Shown: positions 1,030 through 64,000 of the stretch, piece after piece | Position numbering within the stretch: the stretch's first letter is position 1 | Layout of the letters: every line of letters begins with the position of its first letter | Assembly: GCA_000002445.1 (NCBI GenBank) | Contig: CM000208.1 | Coordinates: forward strand, 1,568,001-1,632,000 | DNA length: 64,000 nucleotides | Reading direction: 5' to 3' | Source: Trypanosoma brucei | Lineage: Eukaryota | The notes under the pieces: generated by a model | Database searches by the model: none | Told to the model about the DNA's origin: nothing | What the model saw: the letters and a program-made list of their open reading frames with translations, nothing else | Made by a program: the position numbers and the translations under genes

Positions 1030-1032
<3 letters not shown>

Positions 1033-41040: not shown

Positions 41041-41322
41041 CTAGTTGCTCTGCTTCAACTCACGAAGTCGGCGGACCGTCGACCGCACGGTTGTGTTGTT
41101 CGGCGTACTCAGCGTGTAGGCGCCACCAGCAACCGTCTTGCTGCAACCATCGCAGCGCCAGATGCCAACGGCCTTGCGACGGAATGCGAACTTCCCGCAG
41201 AAGGAACAGAAGTGTTTCGCATGCTGAGACACCTCCAGCTTCTTGGCGCGCTTACGCGGGTTCGAACCATAGCGGGCGCCATAGCGCCCCATGACGCCCA
41301 TCTTGACGGTACGCTTCGCCAT
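41041..41322 (-). CDS. RPL37A: 60S ribosomal protein L37a (eL43)
   Basis: 93 aa, ATG confirmed. '[19 protein letters not shown]...[22 protein letters not shown]...[15 protein letters not shown]' carries the C4 zinc ribbon (C-x2-C...C-x2-C) and the conserved eL43 N-terminus. Confidence 0.92.
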
Positions 41323-44315: not shown

Positions 44316-46035
44316 CTTTCACCCACAAGCAACCACCACTTTACTACACCCACTTGTACCGCTCAACTACTTAAAGGCGGCACACCGACGACACGGCAGA
44401 TTACCCTTCTAAGACACTGGTGCTTCCACCGATGCAACCAAGTCCCTGCTTGAAGGGGAAAAGGGAAAAGGGGGAGAAAATACGGGAGTGACACTCCACT
44501 ATAAATGGGTGCAATTTCCTACAAACTACAGACCATATATGTGAACCCACACAGATGGAAACAATTAGTTGAAATGCTTTCACAGGCACTACCTCAATGC
44601 TCACACCAAGCAAACGTGCAGGAAGCCGGCAGAAACATTGGAAACACTTTCGATGCCATTATCGGATAGAGTGGCTCAAGCGAAGGAAATCAGCACATCA
44701 TCTAGTAGTGCCTAACAAGGAACGAAAATATATATCATGTATTCCCTACGTGGAAAAATCAACGAACCGACAATATTTCACAGCGGAATTAGTTATTAGA
44801 AAAAAGAAAAAAAAAGTGATTTGTGCCAACGGGAAAAAGAAATCTCACAAAGGAAAAATAAGCACGTTCATTCCACACCGACACTACACCCGAGTGTAAC
44901 CATCACAGCACTGTGTGTGAGTGGGATGCTAAAGTCCATAATTAGTTTTACTGTCCTCGCTGAAACTGTAAGCACGTGAAAGCAGAAGTTGCTGATAACC
45001 CTTACGCAAAACCACAATAGCTACGCTCTGGTGCCAAGTAAGGCACGTACATAACAAAACTAATTTAAAGGATATGCGGGGTATCTCCTCAACAAATGGA
45101 GTACTTTATGCCCACCTCGCGGTTTTAGCGGCAGGCAGCACTCATTGACCAAAAAAAAAAAGGAGCTCACATACCAACGCATGGATCATCACTTAAGTTC
45201 GCCCTTTGTCACATCGAATTGTCAAACAACATTACAAGGAGGACAGCACAACACAGCAAAGAAGAACAAAAAAAAATTACCCGCAACACTCACACGCACC
45301 ACGGAATAAATCATCGCTCTTTAAACCAAATATCCTGCATCCGCAAAGAGATAAACAAACAGAAGTAATTAAAAAAAAGGAAAATAAATTCATAAAAAAT
45401 AACGTGGAAGGAGCATCAAGTGGACCAGTTGAGTAGAAACGGAAAAGAGTACCTCACACTCGAGCATACACAACTGTGAAGGGGGACGCACACTCCGCAA
45501 GAGAAACAGCATGCACACACAACATGAGTCAATAAGCACCGACCACAGAATTACGACATCAACCTCTCAGGACAAGCAGCAGCAGTAAAAGATCCGGTAT
45601 ACAAATATACACCAACGAAAGAGAAGATAGATTCACCAAAGAAAGAATAGGAAACGGAGCGGCACTCATCGCAAGGTGTGGTAAGCGGGAAGCGTTACGA
45701 CCAACACACAGTTGGGGACGGTAAGAGAAACTGGAACAACGGCCATGCTACCTTAGCTAACCAATAACTCACTCAAAAAGCGAAAATAGTGACAGACCAC
45801 TATAAGACTAGGAGCGAAATCAACAAAAAAAACAGAAAAATATATACATAATGATTGGAAGGCCAAAGACAAAAGACAAGTTGACGCTATCATCCATATC
45901 TACAACAAAATCTCAAACACAGTACCTCCCTCCAAGAGTCTCCCCCCCCCGCGAACCACAGACTCGACAACTCGAATAACCTGGAATTAGAACCCTACTG
46001 AAGCGACAATAATAATGATAATAATTAATTTAAAA

Positions 46036-46072
46036 CACGAGCTGAATAATAATAAATAAATAAATAAATAAT
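46036..46072. repeat. (AATA/AAATA)n short tandem repeat in the HSP60 3' flank
   Basis: Direct read: 'aataataataaataaataaataaataatgatga'. Confidence 0.8.
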
Positions 46073-46145
46073 GATGACGTTCAATTCTGTGCGGAACATT
46101 ATGACCAGGACAACACCTGCTCAACGCTCTCAGGTTGCCTCAGCA

Positions 46146-47834
46146 TCAATACATGCCGTCCATACCTCCCATACCACCCATGCCTCCCATACCACCTGCA
46201 GCAGGTGCATCATCCTTCGGTAAATCCACAACCGCGGCCTCTGCCGTCATCATGAGGCTGGCAACAGACGCAGCGTCAGTAAGCGCAACACGAACCACAC
46301 GCGCGGGGTCGATTATTCCGGCTTCAAACATGTTCACGTAGCGATCAAGCTGCGCATCGTAACCAACAGCGGCATCAGTGTTCTCGAGCACCTTCTCAAC
46401 AACAACAGCACCTTCCCTTCCAGCATTGGCAACAATGCGGTGGGCGGGCAACCGCACCGCGTTACGGATGATCTGCACGCCAGTCCGTTGATCAGCGGTG
46501 AGTGACTGATCCTGTAGTAATCCGTCCAATGCTTTGCTCGCACGCAGCAACGCAGCGCCACCACCAGGGACAATGCCTTCCTGCACCGCAGCGCGGGTCG
46601 AGCACAGGGCATCTGTGATGCGGTCCTTCTTCTCGTTCACCTCCACCTCAGAAGCACCACCAACGCGGATTACGGCAACGCCACCACTCAGTTTTGCAAG
46701 ACGTTCTTGAAGCTTCTCGCGGTTATAGTCACTCGTCTCGCGCTCAATGAGCCCGCGCAGCAGGTCCACGCGTTCTTTCATCATCGCAACGTCGCCACCA
46801 CCGTTCAACAGTACTGTATCGTCCTTCGTGATTGTTGCCTTCTTCACACTCCCCAAGATGCTGGCGTCGAATTTCTCAGCGTCAAGTTCCACACCACTGC
46901 CTTCCTCACCAACAACGCAGGCACCACTGAAAATGGCGATGTCTTGCAGCATCGCAGCCTTGTTGTCCCCGAAACCTGGAGCCTTCACGCACGCAATCTT
47001 CAGCTTTCCTTGAAGTTTATTGAAAATCATCGTCGTCAGGGCCTCACTCTCCACATCATCCGCAATGATCAGCAATGGTCGCCCACTGCGCACCACGTGA
47101 TTCAACACCGGTAAGATCGTATGAATGTTGTTCAACTTCTTTGCAGACACAAGCACGAACGCATCTTCAAGCTCGGCCTTCTGAGTCTTCGCGTCAGTTA
47201 CGAAGTACGGGCTGATGTAACCGCGGTCCACACTCATGCCTTCCACAACTTCCAGCTCAGTCGTCAATGTCTTCCCATCTTGTGTTGTGATCACGCCATC
47301 CTTCCCCACCTTCTCCATCGCCTCCCCAATCAGCTTGCCGAGTTCAACATCACCGTTCGCGGAAATCGTCGCAACCTGCACAACGTTCTCCGTATTTGTT
47401 ACCGTTCGGCTCTGAGATTCGATGTTCTTCAGGATCACCTCCACGGCGCGGTCCATACCACGCTTCATGTCAATGGGATTCGTCCCGGTTGCAATCGATT
47501 TGATACCCTCGCTAAAGATGCTTGCAACGAGGACAGCCGATGTCGTCGTTCCATCACCCGCGAGGTCATTTGTCTTATTGCACACCTGCCGCACGAGCTG
47601 CGCACCCATGTTCTCAAACGGGTCCTTGAACTCGATCGACTTCGCAACGGTTACACCATCCTTCGTGATCTTCGGAGCACCGTACGATTGCTCGATAATC
47701 ACGTTACGTCCCTTAGGCCCAAGGGTCGTTGCAACAGCCTCCACAGCGCGTTGTACGCCCTTCAGCATAGATTGACGTGCTTCCGTGCCAAAACGGATGT
47801 CTTTGGCACCAAAACGGACGACACAGCGGAACAT
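46146..47834 (-). CDS. HSP60: Mitochondrial chaperonin HSP60 (GroEL family)
   Basis: 562 aa, ATG confirmed. GroEL signatures: '[17 protein letters not shown]', '[12 protein letters not shown]', '[27 protein letters not shown]', 'VPGGGAAL'. The C-terminal Gly-Gly-Met repeat tail is '[18 protein letters not shown]'. A polypyrimidine tract on the coding strand lies just upstream (plus 47865-47890 'aagagggaggaaggtaacc'). Confidence 0.95.
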
Positions 47835-47864
47835 GTTCGGATCTTATTGTTTTGTGTTCTATGG

Positions 47865-47890
47865 TAAATATGATAAGAGGGAGGAAGGTA
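47865..47890 (-). promoter_or_regulatory. Polypyrimidine tract (coding-strand) upstream of the HSP60 start: candidate trans-splicing / upstream-gene polyadenylation signal
   Basis: Plus 'ataagagggaggaaggtaacc' equals minus 'ggttaccttcctccctcttat', 30-60 nt upstream of the ATG. The exact acceptor AG cannot be fixed without RNA data. Confidence 0.35.
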
Positions 47891-48855
47891 ACCGATACCG
47901 GTTTTTTTGTTGTTGTGTCGTGATGTTTCTTGTGATCTTTTTGTTTTCAATGTTGTTTATGTATCTCTTCCAGTGTTTGAACGCCATCAGTCATCGCAAG
48001 CTGTTGTATAGTCAGTTTTGTTAGCTTTTTTTGTTATTGTTGCCTGCTGTGATTCGTTCTTCGTTTTAGTCTTTTAGAGACGAAAAAGGTAATTTTGTAG
48101 GGTTCCCCATATAAAACAAGCATTCTGTTGTTGTTGTTTTTTTGCGGCATGGTACTTCATCTGTACAGTGACCGTGACCTGTTGATCGTTCCTCCTTTCG
48201 TTACCAACAAGCAATGCACGCACTGAAATGTGTGTTATGCAAGAATTCCCTTTGTCTTGTATCTGCTGAGAAATTTTGTTGCGTATTGCTTGCGCACAGG
48301 ACGAAGACGGAACGTGCGAAGCATTTCTTCATGCGTTATGGCACGCAAACATACACTTTGCCGTGGCCTTTTTGTGTTGAGATAGCAACTTCCCCAACCC
48401 CCTCTTTGCTTATCCCTCCTGCCGCTTCTTAGTTTAGTGTTGCCCCTGTAACTTAGCTCTTTCGCCCTTTTCCCTCGTCTAGAACTCAAATCGTCTGGAG
48501 GCCGAGTCACGCTGTAATACAGACTGAATCTCCACTTCCCTGATATTTTGCTTCATTATGGCCCTGAACAAAAAGAAGATCACTCCATCCCACATATCCT
48601 TCCATTTGATCCATTTCCGACCGCGGTGGAATGCAAGTCTTTTGACGCACAACATAAAGGTTAATACTGCTCGTGAGTTTTCAAGATATCTGAATTCGGC
48701 CATAAAACACCACCGCAGAAACTCGCAATGGCTGGATTGACAACCTACACGGAGACGTTACAGTTCAAAGAGGGCATCAGAACAGGGGTGAAATTTGATC
48801 TATGTTCCTCTCCGCCAAGTCCTCGGACTCATTGGTAAAGGCGTCACCTGGGTTT

Positions 48856-51849
48856 CTACCGATGCGAGAACTGTGTCCCGCTGAGCGTGATGAACCCCCG
48901 AACCGTACCCAGGTCCCTTTGTCGTTCGTACCACTTGGCGAGCTCCAGAGACTTAACCCGTGCTGTGTTTACAACCCCGGGGGAAATACCGGCAAGCAGC
49001 GCCACCTCAACGCCATAGCTTCTCGCGCAGATTCCGGGCACAAGGCGATAAAGAAAAGTAATGGTCGGTATATTGCTGTCACTTGCAGCAGAAACGGCAA
49101 AGTCCATGTAACCGAGCTGAACCCCCCCAGTTTCAGATGCTGCTGAGGAAGTGGATTTCTGCATGGACTTGTGCTCCTCCTGCGCGAGCGCGTGGTAGTG
49201 GGTAGAGAAGAGTAGAAGGGGCGGCACTGGGTGCCTTTTCTTCATGGCGGCGAGCATTGCGTGCGCTATTGTGTAGCCGTCGTGCGTAGATGTCCCCCTG
49301 CCGAGTTCATCCACTAAACAAAGACTCCACGGACCGGCAAACCGCACAATCTCGGCTGTCTCACTTAACTCGACATAAAGGGTACTCTGTCCTTTGTGCG
49401 TTGCATCGCGAGCGCCAATCCTTGTGAAAACACGGGTAACGGGCGCCAAGCGCATAGACGTAGCAAACACTGGTCCACCCATTTGGGCTATTATAACATT
49501 CACGGCAACTGTGCGCATCAGCGTACTCTTTCCAGCCATATTCGGTCCGGTCAGCACCAAAATGCGTCCATGTGTAGCGTCAAGATTGACAGTGTTTGGG
49601 ACAGAATCGCTTTTGAGAAATGGATGTCGTAGTTCTTCCGCAAGCAGGTACGCACCGGCGTCACATTCTTGTACAACGGGGTAGCAAGTAGCGACACCAC
49701 TGGTATGTAGCGACGCCAGACTGAGCAAACAATCAAAATAGCAAAGAGCCGCTGTGGCTTCATAAAGGACGGGGAAGTAATTAAATATATGCGAGGCAAT
49801 GTTTCGAACAACAAGTAAGAGGGCATCTGCTTTCTTCGTTTTGGCACGCTTATGCTCCTCTACCAGAGGTTCCAAACCTGCGACTGTATATCTGACACAC
49901 GCTGAAGTACGGGATCGCTCGATGAACCCAGGGGGACATCTCTTAGGTGCCTCCATCAATGGAACCTCAACCAGAAAATTTTCACGACCGATATGAGAGT
50001 AGGTGATTGCAGCACCGTTGAAAATGTTGTCGCGCAGCTCCCCTAAAACTTCATCCAATTTTTTCTCTATGATATCTAAGCACTCCGTAGCTTCGTCGTA
50101 CGCGGGACATGCTCCCTGCGATGGTACAATCACCCCTGACACCTCAGCAGCTTTTCGATCGAAACAGGCCTTGATTGAGGCGACAGCAGGAGCCACTGCG
50201 CCCATGGTTCCCCACAGTTCCTGCAAAAGAGGGGGGGCACACTCCTTTTGGACGTTGTTAGACCAATCCAGCATCTCCTCGAATGCAACAACGGTTGAAA
50301 TAATAAGTTGAAGATGCTTCTTGTACTGCACGAGAGGATCTACGAAGGCTATTTGTTGCGAGTCACCCTTCAAATCGGCCAACCGTGAAAGATTGCGCTC
50401 GAAATCTGTGGCGAAAAGGTTTGTAAATCGAGATTCAAATGTGTTTGTTGTCCTCCCCCGCTTCGATCCACACTGCGTACCACTCGCCTGAGTGAATTCT
50501 TGGGTAGGGCCCTCGGAAGTACGAGTGCTCGAATTAGGGGTGCATATTGGTGTCGTAACATCGGCAGACTCCTCCGTTTTGGCCCAGAGATCATTCAAAT
50601 TATTTTCGATGATAAAGCGTACCGCTTCCTGCCTCGCATTGATAACACGCGGGGACGCGGAAGGTCGCAAAATCCAAGAACGGAAAAGACGCTTTCCACC
50701 GTTGGTGCAACAACGGTTGATCAGATTAAAAAGAGATCCGCGTTCACTATCGTCCCGCAGGTTACCCACGAGTTCAAGATTACTTACTGTCGCGGCATCA
50801 AGAACCAACCCGGGGTCTTCGCGACGTTCGTACCACAGAAGAGTTGAATCGGAGCAACGACTTCGATCATTCGACGGCACACCGCTGGTTACCTGCTGCT
50901 TTAAAAGGTGAAAGTTGTATGGTCGAGCCTCCAAAAGTATAGAGTCAACATTACTCAACTTTAACGATCTAAAATACTGAGCTAAGAAACGACCCGCCTC
51001 CTTTAAGCTCCTCTCCTCAAGGGGGAGTTTGCGAAGTGAGGTACCAACCTCTTCAACCAGTTCAACCTGGAAACCCTCCCCTTCTACCCATTCAAATAGA
51101 CGTCTCCCAAATGATCCCTTGGGCTCCTCACCAGGCGCATCAACAGCCCCACGCGGAATTATTATTTCACGGGGACGGATTTGTTGAAGGAGCGCAGAAA
51201 CTTCATTAAGCACCTCTTCAACAAAGCCTGCGGCGCTCTCCTTGCCATTCGTACCGCAGGGACAGTGGAAAACAACGCGACGGGAAAGATCGACGGCCAT
51301 TCCATCCACACTACCGCTCCCCATTGGATACAGTGCAAGTACGAACACTGCACCATAGCCGCTGATCATCATGGGATCGGTTATGGTGCCAGGGGTAAGT
51401 ATCTCAACTAGCTCTCGTGGCACGACTTTCGGACGAGCATTTTTTGATGACTCCCCTTCCTCCTTCATTTGCTCTACTCGACCCACCTTGTAGCCCCGAA
51501 AAACGAAGAGACGGGCCCATTCACTAAATGTTTGTTCAGGGACGCCTGCAAGCCGCATTTTCCCTCGGTTAGTGGTGTCAACAACTAGCTTCAACCCGAA
51601 CTCACGGTGAGCCATAGCGGCATCTTGGTCGTAAAGCTCATAAAATTTGCCCTTTTTGAAAAAAATTACCACATCGTAGTGCTTTGACTTCACTTCCCAG
51701 TACTGTCGTTCCATGGCAGCCATTGCCTCCAAGTCCCTAGGAGGGATAGTAATAGAAGAGGGCGGTCGCTTCGGATCAATACCCCTTAAAAACGGGTAAG
51801 AAACGTTTTCAGGGCAAATGTCCTCACATTCAAGCGAAACCTCAGGCAT
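48856..51849 (-). CDS. MSH6: MutS homologue, MSH6-like mismatch-recognition subunit (MSH8-type in trypanosomatids)
   Basis: 997 aa, ATG confirmed. The N-terminal mismatch-binding domain has the Phe-X-Glu motif 'KKGKFYELYDQDA' (compare MSH6 'GKFYELYHMDA'). Walker A 'LTGPNMAGKSTLMRTVA', 'STH' in 'FSTHYH', Walker B 'LCLVDELGRGTSTHDGYTIA'. It has no long N-terminal PWWP/PIP extension. It is the first (most upstream) gene of the minus-strand transcription unit in this window. Confidence 0.8.
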   Translation of the reverse strand: MPEVSLECEDICPENVSYPFLRGIDPKRPPSSITIPPRDLEAMAAMERQYWEVKSKHYDVVIFFKKGKFYELYDQDAAMAHREFGLKLVVDTTNRGKMRLAGVPEQTFSEWARLFVFRGYKVGRVEQMKEEGESSKNARPKVVPRELVEILTPGTITDPMMISGYGAVFVLALYPMGSGSVDGMAVDLSRRVVFHCPCGTNGKESAAGFVEEVLNEVSALLQQIRPREIIIPRGAVDAPGEEPKGSFGRRLFEWVEGEGFQVELVEEVGTSLRKLPLEERSLKEAGRFLAQYFRSLKLSNVDSILLEARPYNFHLLKQQVTSGVPSNDRSRCSDSTLLWYERREDPGLVLDAATVSNLELVGNLRDDSERGSLFNLINRCCTNGGKRLFRSWILRPSASPRVINARQEAVRFIIENNLNDLWAKTEESADVTTPICTPNSSTRTSEGPTQEFTQASGTQCGSKRGRTTNTFESRFTNLFATDFERNLSRLADLKGDSQQIAFVDPLVQYKKHLQLIISTVVAFEEMLDWSNNVQKECAPPLLQELWGTMGAVAPAVASIKACFDRKAAEVSGVIVPSQGACPAYDEATECLDIIEKKLDEVLGELRDNIFNGAAITYSHIGRENFLVEVPLMEAPKRCPPGFIERSRTSACVRYTVAGLEPLVEEHKRAKTKKADALLLVVRNIASHIFNYFPVLYEATAALCYFDCLLSLASLHTSGVATCYPVVQECDAGAYLLAEELRHPFLKSDSVPNTVNLDATHGRILVLTGPNMAGKSTLMRTVAVNVIIAQMGGPVFATSMRLAPVTRVFTRIGARDATHKGQSTLYVELSETAEIVRFAGPWSLCLVDELGRGTSTHDGYTIAHAMLAAMKKRHPVPPLLLFSTHYHALAQEEHKSMQKSTSSAASETGGVQLGYMDFAVSAASDSNIPTITFLYRLVPGICARSYGVEVALLAGISPGVVNTARVKSLELAKWYERQRDLGTVRGFITLSGTQFSHR

Positions 51850-54800
51850 TGGAAAGCGGAACTAGAGATCTCCTCAACTAATTAATTCAGGATACCAAGG
51901 GTCAGATCTCCCTCCAGCACTTAGGCAAGTAAACAAGGAGCGAAAGGCAATACTATCGTAAGTAACACAGGGCACCATGAGGTAAACAAACACGAAAAAA
52001 AGTAGTTGAAAAAATAAACACATATATGCCTTCTGAAACGGTATCCGAATCCTAGCATCCCGTGGTAATAGTTATTATAAGTGTTAGACGTAAAGTGTCA
52101 ACCACGAGGGTAAACGAAGGAAAAGAAACAATAAATAATCACGCTGATGTTTGAATATCATGTCATTCCTCACCACCGTTCCGAAGGTGACAAAAACATG
52201 TATCTGCTACCTCTAACTTGAGACAAAATTGAATATAATCGTAAAGGGTGTACCCGATACATACACGAATAACACTCAGTGTAAAAATTAAAAAATGAAT
52301 AAAACGAGAAGACCTTCGGTAATACCTAAGAAGACAGAACCTGTTTCAAACTCGCTGATTACATCCAACGTCCCTCTTATCCATCAATCCGGCTTGTAGT
52401 GATGACACATTCTAGTAATCAACTGTGAAAATGGGGTGAGATCATGAAAGCAGATGTTCATCCGCTGTTCATTCCGCGAGGATGTTAAACCTACACGGAA
52501 CCTTCCTTAGCTCTCCACACTGGGCACTATGAGGAAAACATGCCGTGCTACCTGTCACTGGAAACCTGTTGCTTCACCAGCAACGATAGACTAAAACGTG
52601 GCCCCAAACCCCCAAAAAGTTAGCGCCAGGACTGAAAGTTCGTACCATTTGCCCCGCAGAGCACATGTGTGCACGAGCGTATTGCCGGTGAGGAAAGAAA
52701 AATCCATAAACGTTTTCAGCAAAACATTGGAGGCCTCGGTTTTCCATGAAATACCATACATACAAGAAACAAGCGAAACGAAAAATAAAACAAAGCACCA
52801 TAGTTGTAGTCATGGATAATGCCCGTAGTTCCTTTTTTTTTTTGAGGAATAAATGAAAACATGTTCAGATTTTTTTGAAGAAAAGGGGGAGTTGCCGACC
52901 CTTAGAAAGCACCAATCAGCTTTTTCTCCTCAAAGGTTCGACATACCGCAAAGAATTGTTCATACGGTGCCCAACATCGGTTCGTATGCACCGCTATGAT
53001 CATTTTCGAATGCAACAACCACTAACGAGTCAACCCATTGCAACAGGGGAAAAGTATAAAAAAAACAAACTACACTATTGCTTCATTCAGAAATAAAAGT
53101 GATTGATGCGGGCACTAAATGTTAGAGGAAAGACTCGCTGAATTTTGTGAGCAGCGAGTCCTCTATTATATTACTACTCATCGATTTTATTATATTTTCC
53201 TTATATAATACAATTTATAAGGGGAGATGTGCCGCCGAATCATTGCATAAGTAAGGGAAGAAATCGAGAGAAAACGCAGTAGCTTCTGCATGTTATGCAG
53301 GACCCTAGACCATGGCTAAGCTAAACTCAAAGAATTAAAAAACAGTTAGAAAACACCGAAAGGCTTGATAACAAGTGAAAACCGCCACGATGCACCGTTT
53401 AGTGATATATCTAAAGTAACAGAGTTGAACAATAACTAGTGACAACGGAAACTGCATGGCCACCTTGAGACAAATATACCATAGCCCAATTTCACGGAAG
53501 AAAAAAGTCGATAGGAGCTAGTGGGCACGAGAGCTGTTGCCCTACGTGCTGGAGAGCAAAGCAATACTGAGCAATCACGTGTCCACAAGAAAATATTATA
53601 ATCAAGGGATAAAGCTCAGCAACCGTTCACCCTTTTGGTGCTTTTTGGGACACACAAAACCGAGGACAAAAGACGCAAAACGGTGAAGAGGTAAATATGT
53701 GCATGGCACATCATAAGCCATCAAAGATAGGCATCCAATACCCAGAGATGCCCCGCGGTTAAATCGGTTCCCAGCTTGTTTTTGTTTTACCGCGACCAGT
53801 TAGTACACCAAAACTTTTTTTCGTTAATTAAAAGAGTACCCCTCCAAACAAAACACTGAACCCATTAACACCAAATCAAAAAAGCCTTAGTGTTTCAAAA
53901 TAAAAAACGCAATATAGCATAAGGGTCAAGGTACAATAAATGGATTGTAAGTGTAAAGATTAAAAGGCAAGGGGGGAAACACGATCGTGGCGTGTAGCAC
54001 TTCCTTAGAAACACATATTGCACCGGTTGCCTCACAGAATGGAAGGAAAAAGATACCAGCACAATCGCACCGATACATACGTACGATGAACCAATTCGTA
54101 GAGCTTAAGTAATTAAAAAATATGAGCAGCTGGTGGCCAGGTTCGGGGAACTCAGCACAACGCATTACCAGGTTCAGCACATCGGGTAGACGGGGGAAGG
54201 GTTGTTTGTCTTCTTCATCAGCGCTGGAGCGGCCTGTCGCCCATACGTGTAACAAACCACAGTCAACAGACTAATGGGATATTGTGTCCACAAACTCTGC
54301 AAAATCGGCTGATATTTACACAGATTGGAAAGCGAAAATTAAAAAAAACCATGTAACCAAAGGAACCTCAACCATCTCTTTCCCCTTCAAAACATTAAAA
54401 TAATTTTCAGCGAGTATAACTAATCCCTTATTCATGAAGAATCGAGCGAAAGGGAAGAATAAATGTTGGAAACAGTGGTTGTGGTAAGCATATCTTCAAC
54501 TTTTCTATCACATAGAAAGGCATTTTAAAACCTTCCAACACGAAATTTTGACAAACATCCTCGCACGTACGGCCAACCCTCCGCAACAACACATGAACGA
54601 TGTTTACACACCTTACATGTATGGTTCCGGGAGTTCACCCTTCCCAGAGCCGCTGTTCGGTGAAAATCAAAAGAGGGCTATTATGTTATCCGTGACGATA
54701 TAAACAAACGCACAAAAGCGCAGTGAATCTCACCTATTTAAGAATAAGTTAAAGCTATGACAAAAATACAATAAGAAAGGGAAAGAGTTGGCTAGTGGAT

Positions 54801-57800
54801 TTTCTCCACGACTTTCCCCAATTCACTAAAAGCAAGAAAAAAGTGCATTACGGCCGGTCAGGGAAAGCATTCGGCTCAAACGTACCACAGGGTAGGGGGA
54901 AATAGAGCTAAAATTCCCTCCGTGCCGTAGGCTTGCGGCAAAATCGAGGGAAAGTGCGGATCGAAAAGAATATCGGCTACAAGCTAGCAAAAAAAAACGT
55001 ACCGACGTGCAGGGAGGAGACTGGGGATGCGGCATGTCTACTCGATCTTCACATACTTACAGGCATATGCACACCGTGGGATTCAACCTGAATAGAAAAA
55101 CAGCAAAGGAATGTCAGCCATTTAGACAGTGGGGAATTTTGGGTCCGCTGTCAAGGTCAGTATTAAGCTGCATACTGGTAGACTGGGATCGACTGATTAC
55201 TGCACGATTTACAAGCAGCGGTACACACACATCTAACCGCCAAAACATATTTGCGCATGGGCGGGAATACCGGTTGTACAATTCCCCCTCCAGATTAAGG
55301 ACCACTTTGCCAAGTAAGAACCGACGACCCAGCATAATGTTCCTACAATGAATTTTCAACAATGGTCGGACCAAATAAGTAAGAGTACGCTACACCACCT
55401 TTCAAAACGGTCCACTTTCCAACACACAGAGGAAGAAAAGAGGCATGTGTCTCGAGACGCCCACAGTAAGAGAGAAAGTGTGATACATATAATCCAGAAA
55501 AGTTAATACCACCAAAGATGACTACTAAGGGCAGATAGGTATCCAGATGTGTATCTCGATACCGTTAAGAGTGGCCAATCAACGAAGCAGCATAATCATG
55601 CGGCACATCGGAAGAGAAAAACAGCTAATATATAGGATTCACGGTACTTATCTATGAGAAACAAGCGAGTCAAAATCAATCTAAAGATAATTCGCGCGGC
55701 ACAACATAAACAATCGGTAACGGAAGGGAAATCGCGGTTGCACACACATTCAGAGATTCGTCCGCCCGATTCTCCTCGAGTCGAACAGGAAAAACTCGAG
55801 TCGTTAATCCGAACACTATTGATATACAAAGTGCGTATTTCAACAGTTTCACCGAAAGACAATCATTTTCATAACCCCCATGGGCGTCAACGGCTGGCAC
55901 ACCGATAACGAACCCTTGGCAAACTCGCGAAAAAGAGGTCGGCCGAATTATCCACCAGGCCGTATATCAAAAGGCATTCACAGCCGTGACGCCGACACGA
56001 AACAGGGCAACTGAAACTGGCATAAACTCACACATATATAGTCACTTTAATTACGCCAGTTAGTAAAAATGAATAAACAATGCAACAGTTAACAGTGAGC
56101 ACAAAAGAGTGTATACATAATAATGGCGTGTTGTGCAAGGGCAATGCAACTTAACTAGCGCTACTACACGTGCAGCCATCATAACTCCCTTTTTCGAGAC
56201 GTTTCAGAGCATTTCAACGAAAAACGGCACACGTACATGCACATGAAGATGCGTCTGTTTTAAACAGTAGTAACCTACAGCGTTAAATTCCCCTAGGGAA
56301 GCAAGACGTCATGGCACCACAAGCTGCGGCCGAACGGATGCGCAACACGACATTTATGAGAACTTAAAGTCAGGCGGAAGTAATCCCTGTAAACAAAAGA
56401 GAACACTCGTTGACAAACGCAACAGAAAGGGGAAATTACAAGAAAAAACCACTAACCCAGTTACTGAAAGCGCCCCTTATATGTTTTTTTCCTTTTTTTA
56501 ATGCAACTGCAGGTAGCTTCTCGCAACAGCAAAACGAATACCACATCTCCGCCCATATGCGCAGGTATACATCGACTCCGGTTCAAAACTCTTTGTCGTG
56601 CATGATGGCTCAATACCTTCAGCGGTTGCGTCAAATTGCTTCCACACCAACCAACGACATGTTGATAAACCCGGGTGTGACGCCAACAAACAATCAAGCC
56701 CCGGGTGGTAATGTACCCAGTGCCACCGCGTCTGCAAATAATGACGCCGCTTAAAAAACATGTTAATCCACAAACTTGCCACTGTAAAGGCAAAAGGCTC
56801 ACAATCGCCGCCAGCCTAGAGTCACAACACGACCCGCCAACTCCCCAAACCGTCCAAAAAAAAAAAGATTCGACACAGCAGGGGCCAGTACTACGTAATC
56901 GCGTCCTGCATGACCCTTTCGAGCAACCCCTCGCCCCCGGCTCCGAGATTTTCTGGACAGACGCCCTCAGGCCAGAAACAAGAGGTGCGCACCCCATACC
57001 AATACACCGACGCCCCGTGCCACACCGTGTCACATCATACACTTGCGAAATGCATACTCAACATCATCGCGGGGGGATCTCCAGCGAAAGCTGCCGCTAC
57101 GGGTGTTCCCTCGGTGAAGGGTCCCTCTGGCGTCCCCATCGCTCCAAGTGGTAAAAGCGGCCGAAAATAAATTGACTACAAAGGGGGCCCCGACGTGTAA
57201 CTCGCGCGCCGCCCGAACAAACGCATTTTCGGGCAGCAGTTTATGGGGAAACCTTGTGTAAATAGTACCCCCTTGCTTAGAATCATAACCGCCGACATGC
57301 GGAAACAACTGTGGCCCACGGCGGCTGAACCACTGTGGCGCCTTGCAATGTAGCGGCCTCGACGAACACTAACACGGAGAAGTAGGGAAAAGAATTATGC
57401 AAAAAGCCCCACCCCCACGCTCACTATACACAGAGAAAAGCGGAAGCCCAAAACGCATGCGCCCGCACGCACAGCTCTGAGAACTGCGAATGAAGCCGCG
57501 CGAACGGCCAAACCTTATTTGACTTTCCCTGCTTCCGGACATTATCCTCTCCGATGCTGGGAGCGGGCCCCTTTCCTGGTCCGGTGCTTGTGCGCTCTTC
57601 CTGTCGCAGGCACTACTTGGACCATTCACCGGGACGGCGGGTAGCGGGCAAGCGTTGGGTAAGAAAACTCCTTGACGCAGTGCGAATGGTCCGCCAGACA
57701 CTCTTTCCGGAGGAGACCATGAGCAGGCAACGCTAGCCACCAAGAGGACACTGCTGTGCTCGGGACCCTGTATTGCACAGCTTTTGGGTCAACGGCGTAG

Positions 57801-58766
57801 CGCTGGGACGCCGTTTTCCACTCGTCAGTCCCTGAGGGAAAAATACAACTGCATCGGGCCGTCGGCCAGGACAGATTCGGGTCAGGCACTTACAGTCCAT
57901 CACCCTAAGCTAAATGAGAAGCTCGTACACATGCCTGCGCTGTGTTGCGGAAAATGTTTTTTGTAAATCCGTTGATTGATCGTTTTCACGCAGACAGCAG
58001 TCGAGAAACGTTAGGAGCACATCGCAACAGATGTCGAGCGGGACCCTTTTGGCTCCGGCAGTAAGATCGCGTATTTTATCCCCCTGTGCACGACCATTCC
58101 TTATCTTTTTGACTGTGCTGCTGAGGTACGGCCGACTCAGGTGCAAACGACTATTTATTTATTTTTTTTCGCCGGCGCCGGATGGAGGGGTCACAATGCC
58201 GTCCACAAAACGAGAACACCCAACGGCGGGCACCGCCAGACTGACCAGACTGTTACTGCGCGCGCCAGATAACTTTTGAAATCTCTCCGATATCCACCAT
58301 GCCGAATTCAGTTGTACCGGGTTAAAGGACCCCTACCGCCTTTTTTTGCGGACAAAACTAGAGGGAGCAGCGGCAGTTGCTGCAACTCCGTTGCGTAGAC
58401 TGGAATGCACCTCTCACGTGAAGGAGGTTTCAGCCAAGGTGTGTGTTTTGGCGAGCACAGGGGGAAATTGCGGCAGTCTCTTCCTTAACAGAACCCTCCG
58501 TGGCGCCCCGCTCTCCAGTCCGTAGTGGTGGGGAAGACTTCTTGATCCCGGACGCAGGGGCATGTGAAAGAATTTCTCTTTACGTACATTGTTGTCATTA
58601 CATTTCCTTCACATGGAGAGACCATTTCCGGCACACACGTGTATCGAGTGACACCCTTCAAAGCAGCGTCGACTTACATGTTCTCAGATCACAAAACGCA
58701 GCTGCGACGTCTCGAGAGTGAAAGCGTCCAACAATAAATTAGAGGGCTTGAATGTAAGTACGGGTC

Positions 58767-58768
<2 letters not shown>

Positions 58769-58805
<37 letters not shown>
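58769..58805. repeat. (GT)n dinucleotide microsatellite, ~18 units
   Basis: Direct read: 'gtgtgtgtgtgtgtgtgtgtgtgtgtgtgtgtgtgtg' at 58769-58805. Confidence 0.95.
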
Positions 58806-58806
<1 letters not shown>

Positions 58807-59106
58807 AAACCGCCCTAGAGCCCCCAGTTCTAGGGATAGTTTGTTATGGAATCGTAGCCGTCATCACGGTTGATAGCATGTTATTCTCGGTGCATAGGTG
58901 ACCGCACTTAGTATCGATGTGACTCAGTGAGCCGAGCGTGACTGCGTTGTGTTTTATCGTAAAACTAGTCCTCCTTTGGGCGTAGAAAAGTAAATTTGGC
59001 GTCAGCGTTGCAGTGGGCTTGGTACAGTATTACAATGCGCGTCTGAAAGCAGGGTGGTTTACACGAAAGTTGGGACTCACTCCCTACATTTTCTTTGGTT
59101 TCTGTC

Positions 59107-59126
59107 TTTTTTTTTGGGGGGGGGGG
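59107..59126 (+). repeat. T9-G11 homopolymer junction tract
   Basis: Direct read: 'tttttttttggggggggggg'. Confidence 0.95.
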
Positions 59127-62100
59127 TGAACTGATCAACGTCTCGGGGATATTACACGATTCATAATGGGAACGTTTTCTTAGTCCCTGGTTGAAATTCA
59201 CAAATCCGACAACACAGCAAACTACTTACCACCGCCCCTCCTACAAAAAAAAGACGTTTCAACCAGTGCTGAGGAGAAAAAAGATTTCTGTTTGGCTATG
59301 GCGGGCCGTCACCTTGTTTGTACCATTGACCCACTGGCTGTCTACTTCAAAAACATACACTGCGAAATGTCACCTCAGGAAGGTAGCACCAGTTGTCTCT
59401 TGGCCAATCCATTTCTTGCCCACCCGCCTTCGGAGGAGCGTTGCAATGGAAACCGGAGATATACTGATTAGTCTTTAGGGTTTGACTGAGTTCCAAAGCC
59501 ATAGTTTAGAGTTAGGGTTAGGTGCGAGTTGGTGTACCAGTCCAAATTGCGAACATCATCTTATCTAGTGCAGCGCTTCATTACAGCTGCACCGCGTTTC
59601 CAGTAAACGTGCGTCGCTGCAACACATTGGGTGGCCAATGCCTCTCTACGGTATGGGCACGATGGCTCCCTCCTCTTGCATGTGATAGCGTGTGGGTCAT
59701 CGTTCCTTTGGTCCTATTCCTCAAATGCGGAGCAACCCCTTGGTCACTTTCTTTGAACTGAACTTCAGACTCATCGACTTGTCGAGTCATCCAATCATAA
59801 AAACGCCAGAGCCTCTCCGTGGAACTCCGCGAGCGGTCAGACTCCTCCTGAGTCAGCGTTGGACCCTTCTTGTTGGCCGTCCGGTAGTTTGCGAACAGCC
59901 CCTCTCCACTTGCAATCGGAATCTTTTTTTGGCGTCGCTTGACTGGAGCAAAGGTTCTGTAGGTAGTGCTGCGTTCAGCTTCGTCTCTTGCCCCCATCCC
60001 TCAAGGTTGATTTTTTGTTTTACTCCAGTGAGAAACCAGAACCTGTAGTGGAATGCGAGCGTCACAGTGTGAGACTAAAAAATACCCTTACGTTATACGG
60101 AGCTCTCTCGAACACTACGCCAAGATCTGTTCGAGGCACCATGGGTAGTGTTCGAGAGTCTGGTATTATACACTTTACACAAACAGGGCATATAATTATG
60201 CGGAGATTTCCCTAGTGTTCGATACTATTCAAGATGTGAGAATGCATTTCCTATGGTGACTAAAAGTGTGTTATATCGGCTTAGTTCCCCTGCACATAAT
60301 ATACCATGAGGCGTTATGTACACAATATGGGAAGTGTGGCTACTGTATATGTTATTTGTTAACTCTTCCTTCGAATGAAACTACAGTCACAGCTCTCCTT
60401 CTCACATCATATGTATCTGCTTTACCTCACATTATTACTCTATACCATCGTGTTCTAATGGGAAAAATGATGTGGAATGACGGATTGGGTGAAAAAAGAA
60501 AAGATCAGAAAGGCATGACTATCTCTCTCTATGGTGTGTGGTATACGCTGTTGATGCTTTGAAAGTTCTGCGTCATCACGTGATATCGTATATCCACATG
60601 CTGTGTGCATGTATTCGTGTGATGCATGCTTGGAACAATGGAGAGTGTGACCATGTCAGTTTGTGTTCACCACCGTGCTCTTCATCTGTAGGAGTAGGTA
60701 AAACTAACAACAGATCATCAATATTTCAACGAAGGGAAGACAGGGTCGGTTTTAATCTGCGGCCACCGAGTGTCGGAGCAACGGTGGAGCCCCAACGTAT
60801 CCGTAGTGTTCAACCCCCTCCGTTGCGGTCTCCGCGTCCCCGCTCCTCATTGTTCGGCCGCTTTTGAAGACGCCACGTTGAGACTGGAACCTGTGTCTTG
60901 CCGCTTTTGCTGGAAAGAGGAAGGAAGATCACTGTGGCCACTAACAGTGGAGGGTCGGGTGTCGTGAGATGTGTCTATCTTCCGTTGGGGTTTTCTTCTT
61001 GGGAAAGCGGTTTACCTTAGTGGGCGGCGGTAACCTGTTCTATTTGGAAGGATGTCGTGCAGGGGGTGAGTGAGTTTTCTTGACCAAGTTTACGAATTTG
61101 TTGTGCACCCCTGTTTTATCCCACTGCTTGAAGTGTTTCGGAATAGATGATAGGGAGGATGGTATGGCAAGAAACCTGCCGGGACCTTTACCGTTTCACC
61201 GCTGACTACATGTTCCCACAATTTTCTACCATATCCTTCGGGCGGCATTGCAGTGAGAGTGCCATGTGGGACAGGGGACAGATTGGAACTTGATCTTCCG
61301 GAGGTCTTCGGAGTTATAGAGTGATTGCTTCTCTTCTCCTTTCCTTTGGCGTGACTCTCATACGGAGGCTCTTGGTGAGCAGGATACAATTCGCCTGCTG
61401 ACTTTTTGGTTTATTTTTTTCCATATTTCAGTGTTGCGGGGTCACTTTCGGCACCGTTGGGAATCGAGAAGTGACGTATAAAGGTGTTCGCTTCTGCAGC
61501 AAAAAGTGGTTCCGTTTGGTATTCGTTTGTGGAGACATTTTCCCTCCTTCCCATTTCGGACAACTTTTTGTCCCGGAAGAAGGGCTTTTGGTATTGTCCC
61601 GTCCGATGATCTTTGCCCCGATCGTTCCATCATGAATAATAGCTACAACTGTGTGTGTCTGTACGGCTGTGGATATTTCCGCAGTCCCCAATCGCTTCGG
61701 TCGCTTTTACTCTTTTATAGCACGGTTTAGAGTTGGTAAGCCGGCACCGTTCCATGGAAATAGCACTCATAGACATGATATCGGCGCCCCCTCAGAGCTT
61801 ACGCGGGCATCGAAGAGTATGACTTGATTGTCGCTGTGCGATGCGGATTGGAGGGTCATGTTTCTAACGAGGCAGCACCTCGAGAGGGTCACGCTGCTGC
61901 CTGAACTAATGGCACGCGCATGGCCACATTTTACACGCTCCCATATGCCTTCAATGTTTCACATATTTTCCGCATACCGAAGGACGACGAAATCACTCCC
62001 TCTGCGTGAAGGGACATCTTTATCCCGCTCCAAAGGGTTGGAAGTTGGAGCCGTTAGTGCTTACCTCTGTTCCTGCAGAGTTGGATCGCGGAACTGTTCA

Positions 62101-63596
62101 GTTATCGCTATTTTTCCGTGGGGGAATTTAACGGGGGTAAGGGTGATTTTGAGGGATCCTGCAAGGTGGGTTCTTGCGTGGACAAATTCGCGCGAATCAA
62201 CACTCGAGACACCCATCTCCGGTGACAGGTTTTAGAAGAAGTTTAAGGGTACAATAACAGAGCGTTCATGCATAGCTATGCCTATTTGCTTCATATCCCT
62301 GAGGAAGTGATGCGGCAACACATCCTCGTGGGGGAAGGGACCCAAGGAGTACGAAGGGTTTCGAGTGCCTTTTATTGTTATCGAGGCATATGTCCCACTC
62401 CACTACCAAAACATCCCCGCACAACGACGGGGGCCCTTCGGGTAGTAAGCCGATCTTGCTAACCTTCTCTTTTTTCAATACATACGCGCCCACTTCTCTT
62501 CTCTTCGTGATGGTGTACGTGGGGGCCACCGGAATGGCGCCTGTTATGGCCCTGGAGGTTGCAAAATAAGGAGGGAACACTTTGTATAAAGGGATGGGCA
62601 ACCGGACTCGTTGTAGCAGAAAGTCGGAGGGGTCACACTCAGTTTTCGGCCCGCTGCAGGAACAACGCTTGAGGGGCGAGTCGCTAGGAAGCGTAGCGGT
62701 GAGAGCTTTCCCGTTTCTGGAGGGGTTTTGGAGAGCTGACACCGAGAATGCCGGTAGGTTCGCCTCGGCCGGGACATGACAACTGACACTATTGAATTGA
62801 GTACTTGGAGGGGTGACGGTGTGAAGGTGAGGTATCAACCGATGGAGGTCGCGCGTCCCAGCGTCCCAGGTGGCCGTCAACCTGGAACTGACAGGCCCTG
62901 TGCCTGGGCTTTTGCCGAGCTGCTCGTCTGACAGAAAGGGAAGCTGCGTCAATACTGAGGCCCTTGTCGCTGTGTTTGATGTTTTGTCGCAGATGCTGCT
63001 TTTTGTTTTATTTTTCCCCCATGGGGACTCCAAATTGAGTTAGAGCGGCGCCTGCTACAAAGAGATTTGGTCGTTTTTCGTGATAAAGTTAGGGCTCTGC
63101 TCGGTGCATTTTTTTAAAAAAAATTCTAGGAGGCAAGGGTCCTGGGCGCGGGGGCGGGGACACCACTACGTGGGCTGCAGCATGTGGACTCTGCCGGCCC
63201 CTTTTCTTTTCACCGAAACGCTAGCTGACCTATGCTCGCCGCGCACGTCCAAGGTGCCATGGAAGTACCCCCTCAGTTGTTTGCCCGGAAAGTGATGAGG
63301 GAGCAGCCGGCCATTACTAATCCGTGGGCTGCCGGTGGGACATCAGGAAGGTGATATTGCTGCCGGTTTTGTAAAGAGCAAGGTGAGACCGGCGCATCCC
63401 GACATCTCTTTGAGAGTGCCACAGCCCATCGCTAGAGAAGGCAGCGGTTTGCAGTACGCTGTTGGGGTGCGCGCCTGTCTGAGGACTTCCCTAATGTAAA
63501 CATGTTGTGGCTGCCTCTTTGGGCATGAGCGTCTTAGGTGCGATTGTTTTTTCCTACGTTTCGCGGTCGTCACAGTGGTAGGTGGTAGACTGCATG

Positions 63597-63624
63597 TTTT
63601 TTTTTTTTTTTGGGGGGGGGGGGG
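63597..63624 (+). repeat. T15-G13 homopolymer junction tract
   Basis: Direct read: 'tttttttttttttttggggggggggggg'. Confidence 0.95.
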
Positions 63625-64000
63625 TGATTATCTATGCCTCTCCTCGTTTTAGGTGCGAGCATCAGCAGCGCCGGCGGACGTGTTCTTGACTCCTAGTGGG
63701 CGCGTAAAAGACGGTTTGTTTCGAGTTGTTCGGTCCACGCGGCCTGGAGCTACGTTGGCGGAAGTGGGTGGGTTCCTCCTTGTCGTATGCTCGGACAGTC
63801 CTAGCGATAAGACCGCGGGAAGGGACTTCTGTCGCGTGTGGGTGATCTGGGTTTATCGCTGTTGCTCAATGGAGCTTTTTTTAAAGGCCTCCCAAGAGGG
63901 TCCTTTTACTCTGTACTGTTCAACGTTGGCGCCCACTCGCTTAGTATTCACAGTCTTCGTGAGAAGAGGTTGGTTGCGGATACTGTAGAATGGCATCCGG

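What the first reader, a model, noticed from the sequence alone, without database searches (positions are those of the whole stretch)
51850..64000. A 12-kb gene desert with a strand-asymmetry flip: probable divergent strand-switch / transcription-start region
Trypanosome chromosomes normally carry a gene every 2-3 kb. Here 20 genes are packed into 49 kb and are followed by 12 kb with no credible CDS on either strand. The plus strand is A/purine-rich up to about 56.4 kb, as it is in every spacer of the minus-strand unit. A balanced GC-rich block follows. From about 58.7 kb the plus strand is T/G-rich, with polypyrimidine runs as expected for sense-strand spacers of a plus-strand unit. That is the compositional signature of a divergent strand-switch where two polycistronic units start back-to-back. 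No plus-strand gene appears within 6 kb of the putative switch. That is atypical and suggests non-coding transcripts or a degenerate mobile element rather than a simple promoter gap.
Basis: partly seen in the sequence, partly recalled or inferred. Interest (0 to 1): 0.65.

Follow-up and report, generated by a model that had tools for sequence, protein, structure and literature searches.

The report
Known trypanosome divergent transcription-start region
The 12-kb gene-free stretch is a real and already mapped divergent strand-switch region of Trypanosoma brucei chromosome 10, where two multi-gene transcription units start back to back; it is ordinary for this parasite, though far longer than the same junction in related species.

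Summary
After the MutS gene (48856-51849, minus strand) there is no credible coding sequence up to the window end. The plus-strand A-T skew flips at about 57.5 kb, inside a GC-rich core. The window is T. brucei TREU927 chr10:1,568,001-1,632,000. The next real gene, phosphomannomutase (Tb927.10.6440), starts on the plus strand about 550 bp past the window end, so the gap is 12,700 bp. Kolev 2010 lists both flanking units as 'Divergent' Pol II units. That study also maps four trans-spliced, polyadenylated minus-strand transcripts with little or no coding potential in the left arm and two plus-strand ones just before PMM. Kieft 2020 shows this locus with PPP-seq and H2A.Z marks, and the silent ORF Tb927.10.6430 is de-repressed when PNUTS, JBP3 or Wdr82 is lost. 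Published promoter 10-mers (G10, GT, T-runs) split by strand at the switch. I found no retroelement relic, structured RNA, tandem array or early replication origin. One thing may be unreported. The same PMM/MSH8 junction is only 0.5-1.1 kb in T. cruzi, T. melophagium and Leishmania. In the two Trypanosoma species five genes follow it, and they are absent from this locus in T. brucei.

The parts
48856..51849 (-). MutS homologue MSH8/MSH6 (Tb10.70.0420 = Tb927.10.6410 by ID order). It is the first protein-coding gene of the minus-strand polycistronic unit.
   Evidence: Pfam MutS_I/III/IV/V. 100% identical to the T. equiperdum MSH6 protein. Kolev Table S14 gives Tb10.70.0420 as the first ORF of a '-' 'Divergent' unit.
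51850..64000 (.). Gene-free divergent strand-switch region. It continues to about 64,549 beyond the window, 12,700 bp in all.
   Evidence: The PMM ATG was found with the published Tb927.10.6440 primer at extended coordinate 64,550 in the 99.78%-identical T. equiperdum contig.
52016..53199 (-). Tb10.NT.63, a trans-spliced and polyadenylated novel transcript (1.48 RNAs/cell). Its longest ATG ORF is 79 aa.
   Evidence: Kolev 2010 Table S7, mapped with offset 1,568,000. The 5' end directly follows an AG, with a polypyrimidine tract upstream.
53328..54426 (-). Tb10.NT.64, a novel processed transcript (1.54 RNAs/cell).
54550..55414 (-). Tb10.NT.65, a novel processed transcript (2.33 RNAs/cell). A 16-nt polypyrimidine tract lies 13 nt upstream of its AG.
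55524..56044 (-). Tb10.NT.66, a novel processed transcript (0.74 RNAs/cell). It is listed as putative non-coding and is the most upstream stable minus-strand RNA.
   Evidence: Kolev Tables S7 and S11. AG check and longest ORF of 22 aa.
56400..57500 (-). Block that is G+T-rich on the minus strand. I infer it is the 5' edge of the minus-strand transcription start region.
   Evidence: GC skew -0.12 to -0.24 and AT skew +0.15 to +0.29 on the plus strand. The last minus-strand TSR 10-mers lie at 56684-56854. The position is an inference.
56461..56997 (-). Annotated 178-aa ORF Tb10.70.0410 (Tb927.10.6420 by ID order). It is almost certainly not a gene.
   Evidence: Called in T. equiperdum. Kolev Table S2 lists it as having no detectable transcript. 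Codon score -0.052. No Pfam hit.
56600..58600 (.). GC-rich core that contains the strand-asymmetry change point at about 57,512.
   Evidence: The 10-mer strand bias switches between 56,854 and 57,953.
57231..57314 (-). Possible fossil of the ancestral LicD gene (motif PHV..YD..YTRFPHKLLP). Unresolved.
   Evidence: tblastn E 0.029; HMM 9.1 bits, E 0.015; 0 of 60 shuffles reach this score. Against: no Pfam support, no collinear segments, and control hits at E about 0.02.
58769..58805 (+). (GT)18 run ending in GTGTGTGTGGA. It matches TSR 10-mers enriched on the coding strand.
   Evidence: Wedel 2017 Dataset EV1.
59107..59126 (+). T9G11 tract, which contains G10, the most TSR-specific published 10-mer.
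61852..62229 (+). Annotated 125-aa ORF Tb10.70.0380 (Tb927.10.6430 by ID order). It is silent in wild type and de-repressed when PNUTS, JBP3 or Wdr82 is lost.
   Evidence: called gene. Kolev Table S2 lists no transcript. Kieft 2020 text, S10 Fig and table: 3.70, p 1.3e-21; 4- to 7.5-fold by RT-qPCR. Codon score -0.058.
63589..64000 (+). Tb10.NT.67 (it runs to about 64,026). It is the first processed plus-strand transcript and has the T15G13 tract (63597-63624) at its 5' end.
   Evidence: Kolev Table S7. After the 6-nt shift its 5' end follows an AG. G13 tract.

Best explanation
This is the divergent strand-switch region of T. brucei chromosome 10 (about 1.620-1.6325 Mb). It lies between the minus-strand unit that begins with MSH8 (Tb927.10.6410) and the plus-strand unit that begins with phosphomannomutase (Tb927.10.6440). 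RNA polymerase II starts in a dispersed way in two broad start regions that face away from a GC-rich core at about 57.5 kb. Direction is biased by G/T-rich sequence on each coding strand. Long oligo-T and oligo-G runs disfavour nucleosomes. Shown in published work: both units are catalogued as 'Divergent'. The left arm is transcribed and processed into four trans-spliced, polyadenylated RNAs (52.0-56.0 kb) with little or no coding potential. Two such RNAs precede PMM. The roughly 7.5 kb between them (56.0-63.6 kb) yields no stable RNA in wild type. It is kept silent by early termination that depends on the PNUTS-JBP3-Wdr82 complex. Inferred: the exact start zones. I place the minus-strand zone at about 56.1-57.5 kb and the plus-strand zone between 62.2 and 63.6 kb. 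Also inferred: the unusual length arose in the African trypanosome lineage, after five ancestral genes disappeared from the head of the minus-strand unit.
For: Gene orientation and gap size. Skew flip and change point at 57,512. Wedel 2017 TSR 10-mers: 42 plus-strand against 2 minus-strand hits right of 57.0 kb, and 29 against 130 to the left; G10 occurs in the desert only at 59116 and 63612, both on the plus strand. Window-to-chromosome mapping has an exact offset of 1,568,000, and 5 of 5 reported minus-strand 5' ends fall directly after an AG. Kolev 2010 Tables S14, S7, S2 and S11. Kieft 2020 shows this dSSR with PPP-seq and H2A.Z and reports de-repression of 6430. ID anchors: HSP60 = Tb927.10.6400 and PMM = Tb927.10.6440. 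The same junction is present in L. mexicana (1.08 kb), T. cruzi (495 bp) and T. melophagium (810 bp). T. vivax has the same layout: a 6.5-kb sense T-rich arm, then a GC-rich block where the skew flips. Oligo-dT and oligo-dG runs exclude nucleosomes (PMC5359979).
Against: No chromatin or primary-transcript data could be inspected directly here; the figures are not held, only their legends, text and tables. The minus-strand arm lacks G10 runs and has only a modest 10-mer signal (12 hits). The GT-rich block at 58.4-59.2 kb lies upstream of the region that Kieft describes as upstream of the wild-type plus-strand TSS, so its role is unclear. Assigning Tb927.10.6420 and 6430 to the two ORFs rests on ID order between two confirmed anchors, not on a direct lookup.
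Confidence: 0.93

Rival explanations
1. The gap is mainly the decayed remnant of the five ancestral genes (204-aa gene, Vps41, TLD, Sec7, LicD) that occupy this interval in T. cruzi and T. melophagium. On this view it is a pseudogene graveyard, and the NT.63-66 RNAs are surviving mRNA-processing units. This could coexist with the strand-switch function.
For: The ancestral PMM-to-MSH8 interval is of similar size: 18.4 kb in T. melophagium and roughly 15.6 kb in T. cruzi. TLD orthologues were found in stercorarian trypanosomes and Leishmania, but in no salivarian species. One LicD-like motif lies on the expected strand at 57231-57314. Four processed RNAs without coding potential sit where genes used to be.
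Against: tblastn and profile-HMM searches with all five families give nothing beyond one marginal 29-aa motif, and controls on the wrong strand reach similar E-values. There is no period-3 signal and no codon bias. The motif has no collinear neighbours and lies 5.4 kb from MSH8, against 0.7 kb in T. cruzi. Vps41 and Sec7 are core trafficking genes, so relocation is more likely than loss; this was not tested.
Confidence: 0.25
2. The gap is filled by a degenerate retroposon (ingi/DIRE/RIME/SLACS), as is common at trypanosome synteny breaks.
For: This locus is a synteny break relative to T. cruzi. From general knowledge, such breaks in T. brucei often carry retroelements.
Against: None of 150 ORF fragments matches a reverse transcriptase, endonuclease or RNase H domain. 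There are no dispersed or inverted repeats beyond low-complexity tracts and no tandem arrays. The composition follows the two transcription directions smoothly.
Confidence: 0.04
3. The region holds real but unrecognised protein-coding genes, for example the annotated 178-aa and 125-aa ORFs, or micro-ORFs in NT.63-65.
For: Two ORFs are annotated in T. brucei and T. equiperdum. NT.63-65 carry ATG ORFs of 73-79 aa. Kieft's table labels 6430 'hypothetical protein, conserved'.
Against: The codon scores are in the spurious range, the period-3 signal is noise, and there is no Pfam hit. Both annotated ORFs gave no detectable transcript in Kolev Table S2. None of the NT transcripts appears in Kolev's homology or peptide tables. 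T. vivax shows no similarity.
Confidence: 0.04
4. The region is primarily a chromosome-maintenance element, either an early replication origin or a centromere.
For: 70% of divergent SSRs bind ORC1/CDC6, and 19 of 42 early origins lie at divergent SSRs (PMC3607257).
Against: The four early origins of chromosome 10 are at 0.80, 1.25, 1.92 and 2.65 Mb, not at 1.62 Mb. There is no AT-rich tandem repeat array.
Confidence: 0.02

Closest known systems
Divergent strand-switch regions / Pol II transcription start regions (TSRs) of T. brucei (Siegel 2009; Kolev 2010; Wedel 2017)
   Same: Back-to-back polycistronic units. G/T-rich coding strands with G10, (GT)n and T-runs. No focused promoter motif. Non-coding processed transcripts near the start sites. 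Silent ORFs between the two start sites. This exact locus is in Kolev's Table S14.
   Different: Nothing essential. The gene-free interval (12.7 kb) is long, and only the plus-strand arm carries the G10 runs.
dSSR Tb927.10.8340 / Tb927.10.6430 class: bidirectional start sites whose 'antisense' output is terminated early by the PNUTS-JBP3-Wdr82-PP1 complex (Kieft 2020)
   Same: Tb927.10.6430, at 61852-62229 (+) in the window, is one of the two published RT-qPCR-validated examples.
   Different: None. This is the published locus itself, subject to the ID assignment.
Orthologous PMM | MSH8-side strand-switch region in T. cruzi, T. melophagium and Leishmania mexicana
   Same: Same flanking genes on the PMM side (PMM, 2OG oxygenase, metallophosphatase). 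Same three-part layout: A-rich, then a GC-rich core, then T/G-rich.
   Different: The junction there is 495 bp, 810 bp and 1,078 bp, against 12,700 bp here. In T. cruzi and T. melophagium five genes (204-aa gene, Vps41, TLD, Sec7, LicD) lie between the junction and MSH8. In L. mexicana only TLD does. None of these genes is at this locus in T. brucei.

Membership tests
Trypanosomatid divergent strand-switch region / Pol II TSR | Protein-coding genes diverge on opposite strands from the region | tested here: met
   All 20 genes left of 51849 are on the minus strand. PMM, 2OG oxygenase and metallophosphatase are on the plus strand from 64,550.
Trypanosomatid divergent strand-switch region / Pol II TSR | Strand-compositional flip, with each coding strand T- and G-rich | tested here: met
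   AT skew goes from +0.228 to -0.142 and GC skew from -0.029 to +0.089. The change point is at 57,512.
Trypanosomatid divergent strand-switch region / Pol II TSR | Published coding-strand-enriched TSR 10-mers (G10, GT repeats, T-runs) on the coding strand | tested here: met
   42 plus-strand against 2 minus-strand hits right of 57.0 kb, and 29 against 130 to the left. G10 at 59116 and 63612 on the plus strand. The minus-strand arm is weaker (12 hits, no G10).
Trypanosomatid divergent strand-switch region / Pol II TSR | 5'-triphosphate primary transcripts and H2A.Z/H4K10ac twin peaks | not testable with these tools
   Taken from the literature only. Kolev Table S14 lists both units as 'Divergent'. 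The Kieft S10 Fig legend states PPP-seq and H2A.Z marks at this dSSR.
Trypanosomatid divergent strand-switch region / Pol II TSR | Junction conserved in related species | tested here: met
   The PMM-side unit diverges from the MSH8-side unit in L. mexicana, T. cruzi and T. melophagium. T. vivax has the same skew layout upstream of MSH8.
ingi/DIRE/SLACS retroposon relic | Reverse transcriptase, endonuclease or RNase H coding remnants | tested here: not met
   150 ORF fragments of at least 45 aa scanned against Pfam: no such family; best E for anything is 0.0099.
ingi/RIME retroposon relic | Nucleotide similarity to the RIME/ingi consensus, A-rich tail, target-site duplication | not tested
   No reference sequence was available. 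The repeat scan shows nothing beyond T(n)G(n) and dinucleotide tracts.
Protein-coding gene | Codon bias, 3-base periodicity and homology | tested here: not met
   No similarity in T. vivax.
Structured non-coding RNA gene (tRNA, snoRNA, snRNA, SL RNA) | Match to a covariance model or tRNA scan | tested here: not met
   ARAGORN found 0 genes. Rfam gave 0 hits at gathering score over the window and 0 at E<=1 over the desert.
Centromere | AT-rich tandem repeat array | tested here: not met
   TRF finds only (GT)18, T15 and three two-copy micro-repeats.
Early replication origin | MFA-seq peak | not testable with these tools
   Published chromosome 10 origins lie at 0.80, 1.25, 1.92 and 2.65 Mb, not at 1.62 Mb.

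The most novel reading that the evidence does not exclude
The gap is the in-place wreck of a five-gene block that headed the minus-strand unit in the trypanosome ancestor. On this reading the African lineage lost or moved these genes but kept transcribing the interval. The four processed NT.63-66 RNAs would be fossil mRNA-processing units, or new long non-coding RNAs. The compact 0.5-1 kb bidirectional start site would have turned into two start zones about 7.5 kb apart, which now need PNUTS-JBP3-Wdr82 termination to stay silent. The LicD-like motif at 57231-57314 would be the last readable trace.
Probability: 0.2. Interest if true: 0.4.

Novelty: already known. Interest (0 to 1): 0.15.

Why it matters
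As a feature it adds nothing new. This strand switch, its non-coding transcripts and its silencing by the base-J-linked termination complex are all published. Its value is as a well-anchored example. The same junction can be compared across four genera, from 0.5 kb to 12.7 kb. That could help explain why T. brucei start regions are so broad, and what happens to a polycistronic unit when its first genes are lost.

Tried and rejected
1. Relics of the ancestral upstream genes. I ran tblastn with the T. cruzi, T. melophagium and L. mexicana versions and built profile HMMs (25 TLD orthologues). Only one marginal LicD motif appeared.
2. Retroelement domains, searched through a 150-ORF Pfam scan: none.
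3. tRNA and Rfam searches, at gathering score and at E<=1: none.
4. DNA conservation with T. vivax: none beyond 13 nt upstream of the MSH8 ATG.
5. I first read Kolev's file 29 as a splice-site table and inferred a PMM 5' UTR of 203 nt and an offset of 1,569,147. That was wrong. It is the poly(A)-site table (Table S13), the true offset is 1,568,000, and 203 nt is the PMM 3' UTR.
6. Look-ups of the window's MSH8 and of the T. brucei PMM cluster in the contig index failed, so the T. brucei reference annotation could not be read directly. The 99.78%-identical T. equiperdum contig was used instead.
7. A literature search for the T. brucei Vps41 gene ID found nothing, so whether the five genes were relocated or lost remains open, apart from the TLD result.
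8. Siegel 2009 is not held, so its statements are cited only through Wedel 2017.
9. I found no published distribution of T. brucei dSSR lengths, so 'atypically long within T. brucei' is not quantified.

Full report
OBSERVATION. The finding describes a gene-free 12 kb stretch with a flip in strand composition. Both parts are real. The last large ORF is a MutS homologue at 48856-51849 on the minus strand. Nothing in 51850-64000 exceeds 255 aa. I trained a codon model on the window's own 19 genes. Real genes score 0.058-0.312 bits/codon in leave-one-out tests. 85 spurious ORFs elsewhere average -0.045, with a maximum of 0.14. All 18 desert ORFs of at least 100 codons fall between -0.125 and +0.081. 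The period-3 signal in the desert is at noise level. None of 150 stop-free ORF fragments hits a Pfam family above chance. Spacers in the minus-strand unit have a median of 672 nt and a maximum of 1830 nt, so the gap is about seven times the largest spacer.

The left arm (51850-56400) has an AT skew of +0.228, the same as the pooled spacers (+0.225). The right arm (58701-64000) has an AT skew of -0.142 and a GC skew of +0.089. Three cumulative skew measures all peak at about 57,512, inside a GC-rich block (0.51-0.585) at 56.6-58.6 kb. Minor corrections apply. One of the 18 spacers has the opposite skew. The left part of the GC-rich block is not balanced; it is G+T-rich on the minus strand.

IDENTITY OF THE LOCUS. 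The MutS protein is 100% identical to the T. equiperdum MSH6/MSH8 protein, and the T. congolense orthologue is on chromosome 10. A T. equiperdum contig is 99.78% identical to the window over 48000-64000 and extends past the window end. It carries phosphomannomutase, a 2OG-Fe(II) oxygenase and a metallophosphatase on the window's plus strand. The published forward primer for TbPMM, Tb927.10.6440 (PMC3465800), matches at extended coordinate 64,550. The gene-free interval is therefore 12,700 bp.

Two ORFs annotated in GeneDB v4, Tb10.70.0410 and Tb10.70.0380, map onto the window's 178-aa and 125-aa ORFs with an offset of 1,568,000, plus 6 nt for the second. The window is therefore TREU927 chr10:1,568,001-1,632,000 in forward orientation. 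I checked this mapping on the sequence. All five reported minus-strand transcript 5' ends (NT.62-66) fall directly after an AG, with a polypyrimidine tract upstream. NT.67 does too after the 6-nt shift. HSP60 is Tb927.10.6400 and PMM is 6440. The three features between them are therefore 6410 (MSH8), 6420 (178-aa ORF) and 6430 (125-aa ORF). This last step is an inference from ID order.

WHAT IS PUBLISHED ABOUT IT. Kolev et al. 2010 (PMC2936537), Table S14, lists a '-' unit whose first ORF is Tb10.70.0420 and a '+' unit whose first ORF is Tb10.70.0370 (PMM). Both are typed 'Divergent'. Their Table S7 places four consecutive minus-strand novel transcripts in the left arm. These are NT.63 at 52016-53199, NT.64 at 53328-54426, NT.65 at 54550-55414 and NT.66 at 55524-56044, at 0.7-2.3 RNAs per cell. 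Two plus-strand transcripts lie just before PMM: NT.67 at about 63589-64026, and NT.68 at about 64.13-64.42 kb. The paper describes such transcripts as trans-spliced and polyadenylated. NT.66 and NT.68 are in its putative non-coding list. None of the six appears in the homology or peptide tables. Both annotated desert ORFs are in Table S2, which lists ORFs with no detectable transcript.

Kieft et al. [quoted passage not shown] There Tb927.10.6430 lies upstream of the wild-type TSS on the top strand. It is de-repressed 4- to 7.5-fold on loss of PNUTS, JBP3 or Wdr82, and the RNA-seq value is 3.70 with p = 1.3e-21.

SEQUENCE ANATOMY AND MECHANISM. Wedel et al. 2017 (PMC5579346) list 157 10-mers that are enriched at least six-fold on the coding strand of 199 start regions. 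G10 leads the list, with 132 occurrences against 17 in the 5'-most fifth. In the window plus its extension, these 10-mers give 42 plus-strand and 2 minus-strand hits right of 57.0 kb, and 29 against 130 left of it. The changeover falls between 56,854 and 57,953. In the desert, G10 occurs only at 59116 (T9G11) and 63612 (T15G13), both on the plus strand. A (GT)18 run ending in GTGTGTGTGGA lies at 58769-58805. A (CT)9T8G7 tract lies at 64100-64130. Maree et al. 2017 show that oligo-dT and oligo-dG runs are excluded from T. brucei nucleosomes.

Putting this together gives the following layout. The MSH8 splice region lies at 51850-52015. Four processed minus-strand RNAs with little or no coding potential lie at 52.0-56.0 kb. 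A minus-strand GT-rich zone lies at 56.4-57.5 kb, and I infer it is the minus-strand start zone. The GC-rich core with the switch lies at 57.5-58.4 kb. A plus-strand GT-rich block lies at 58.4-59.2 kb. A plus-skewed but silent stretch containing 6430 runs to about 63.5 kb. Then come NT.67, NT.68 and PMM. The distance between the most upstream stable RNAs on the two strands is 7,544 nt (56,044 to 63,589). The exact start zones are inferred, not shown here.

COMPARATIVE CONTEXT. The junction is ancient. In L. mexicana, PMM, the 2OG oxygenase and the metallophosphatase diverge from TLD and MSH8 across 1,078 bp. In T. cruzi and T. melophagium, PMM diverges across 495 bp and 810 bp from a unit that reads 204-aa gene, Vps41, TLD, Sec7, LicD, MSH8, HSP60. 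The PMM-to-MSH8 distance in T. melophagium is 18.4 kb and is full of genes. The 495-bp T. cruzi junction has the same three-part layout in miniature: A-rich, then GC-rich, then T/G-rich. T. brucei has none of the five genes at this locus. T. vivax has no DNA similarity but the same layout: about 6.5 kb of sense T-rich DNA upstream of MSH8, then a block of GC 0.61-0.64 where the skew flips. A TLD homologue search found orthologues in stercorarian trypanosomes and in Leishmania and its relatives. It found none in T. brucei, T. congolense or T. vivax. That search uses a word-based prefilter, which is a caveat.

Searches for relics of the five genes gave one marginal hit. It is a LicD-like motif at 57231-57314 on the minus strand, with 16 of 29 residues identical, HMM E = 0.015, and 0 of 60 shuffles reaching its score. 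It has no Pfam support and no collinear neighbours, and control hits reach similar E-values. I leave it unresolved.

RIVALS. There is no evidence for a retroelement: no RT or endonuclease domains and no repeats. A nucleotide search with RIME or ingi consensus sequences could not be done. There is no structured RNA. There is no tandem array, so this is not a centromere. The published early origins on chromosome 10 are elsewhere. Hidden protein genes are unlikely.

VERDICT. The feature is already known and experimentally characterised, so interest is low. The only possibly unreported point is evolutionary. A compact ancestral bidirectional junction expanded about 12- to 25-fold in African trypanosomes, after the first genes of one unit disappeared from this locus.

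Noticed in passing
window 41041-41322 (-): A 93-aa ORF ([44 protein letters not shown]...) that looks like ribosomal protein L37a. It lies in what appeared to be a 1665-nt spacer, where the period-3 signal is 4.58. It is the twentieth gene of the minus-strand unit. L. mexicana has a Ribosomal_L37ae gene in the syntenic region.
   Followed up: partly
window 44512-45807 (-): The largest spacer (44316-46145, 1830 nt) is not empty. Kolev's novel transcript Tb10.NT.62 (1295 nt, 6.38 RNAs/cell, as abundant as PMM mRNA) maps here, with its 5' end directly after an AG. Its longest ATG ORF is 40 aa.
   Followed up: partly
window 47835-48855: The spacer between HSP60 and MSH8 is the only one of 18 with reversed AT skew (-0.206; T 34% on the plus strand, with three T7 runs). 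All other spacers are A-rich on the plus strand. This is unexplained.
   Followed up: no
window 1-2388: The region at the window start has no large ORF. It contains (AT)n repeats (384-399, 995-1028), a G8 run (1742), a C10 run (2097-2106, which is G10 on the minus coding strand) and a C8 run (2174). Kolev's poly(A) table places the Tb10.70.0625 poly(A) site at window position 334 with an 853-nt 3' UTR, so much of this is probably a long 3' UTR.
   Followed up: partly
(TLD homologue search); L008:2425-3402, L006:7314-8423: The TLD-domain gene next to this junction in T. cruzi, T. melophagium and Leishmania has no detected orthologue in any salivarian trypanosome (T. brucei, T. congolense, T. 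vivax). This suggests lineage-specific loss.
   Followed up: partly
L002:6001-9500 (T. vivax, upstream of MSH8): About 3.5 kb of very AT-rich DNA (GC 0.26-0.33) sits directly upstream of T. vivax MSH8, next to a block with GC 0.60-0.64. This contrast is much sharper than in T. brucei.
   Followed up: no
L007:9191-10000 (T. melophagium dSSR): The 810-bp strand-switch region contains a long (ATT)n microsatellite (about 35 units) just upstream of PMM.
   Followed up: no
L003:13714-23009 (T. cruzi) versus window 46146-47834: T. cruzi carries at least five tandem HSP60/Cpn60 copies downstream of MSH8. The T. brucei window has one copy here; a second copy, Tb927.10.6510, lies further along.
   Followed up: no
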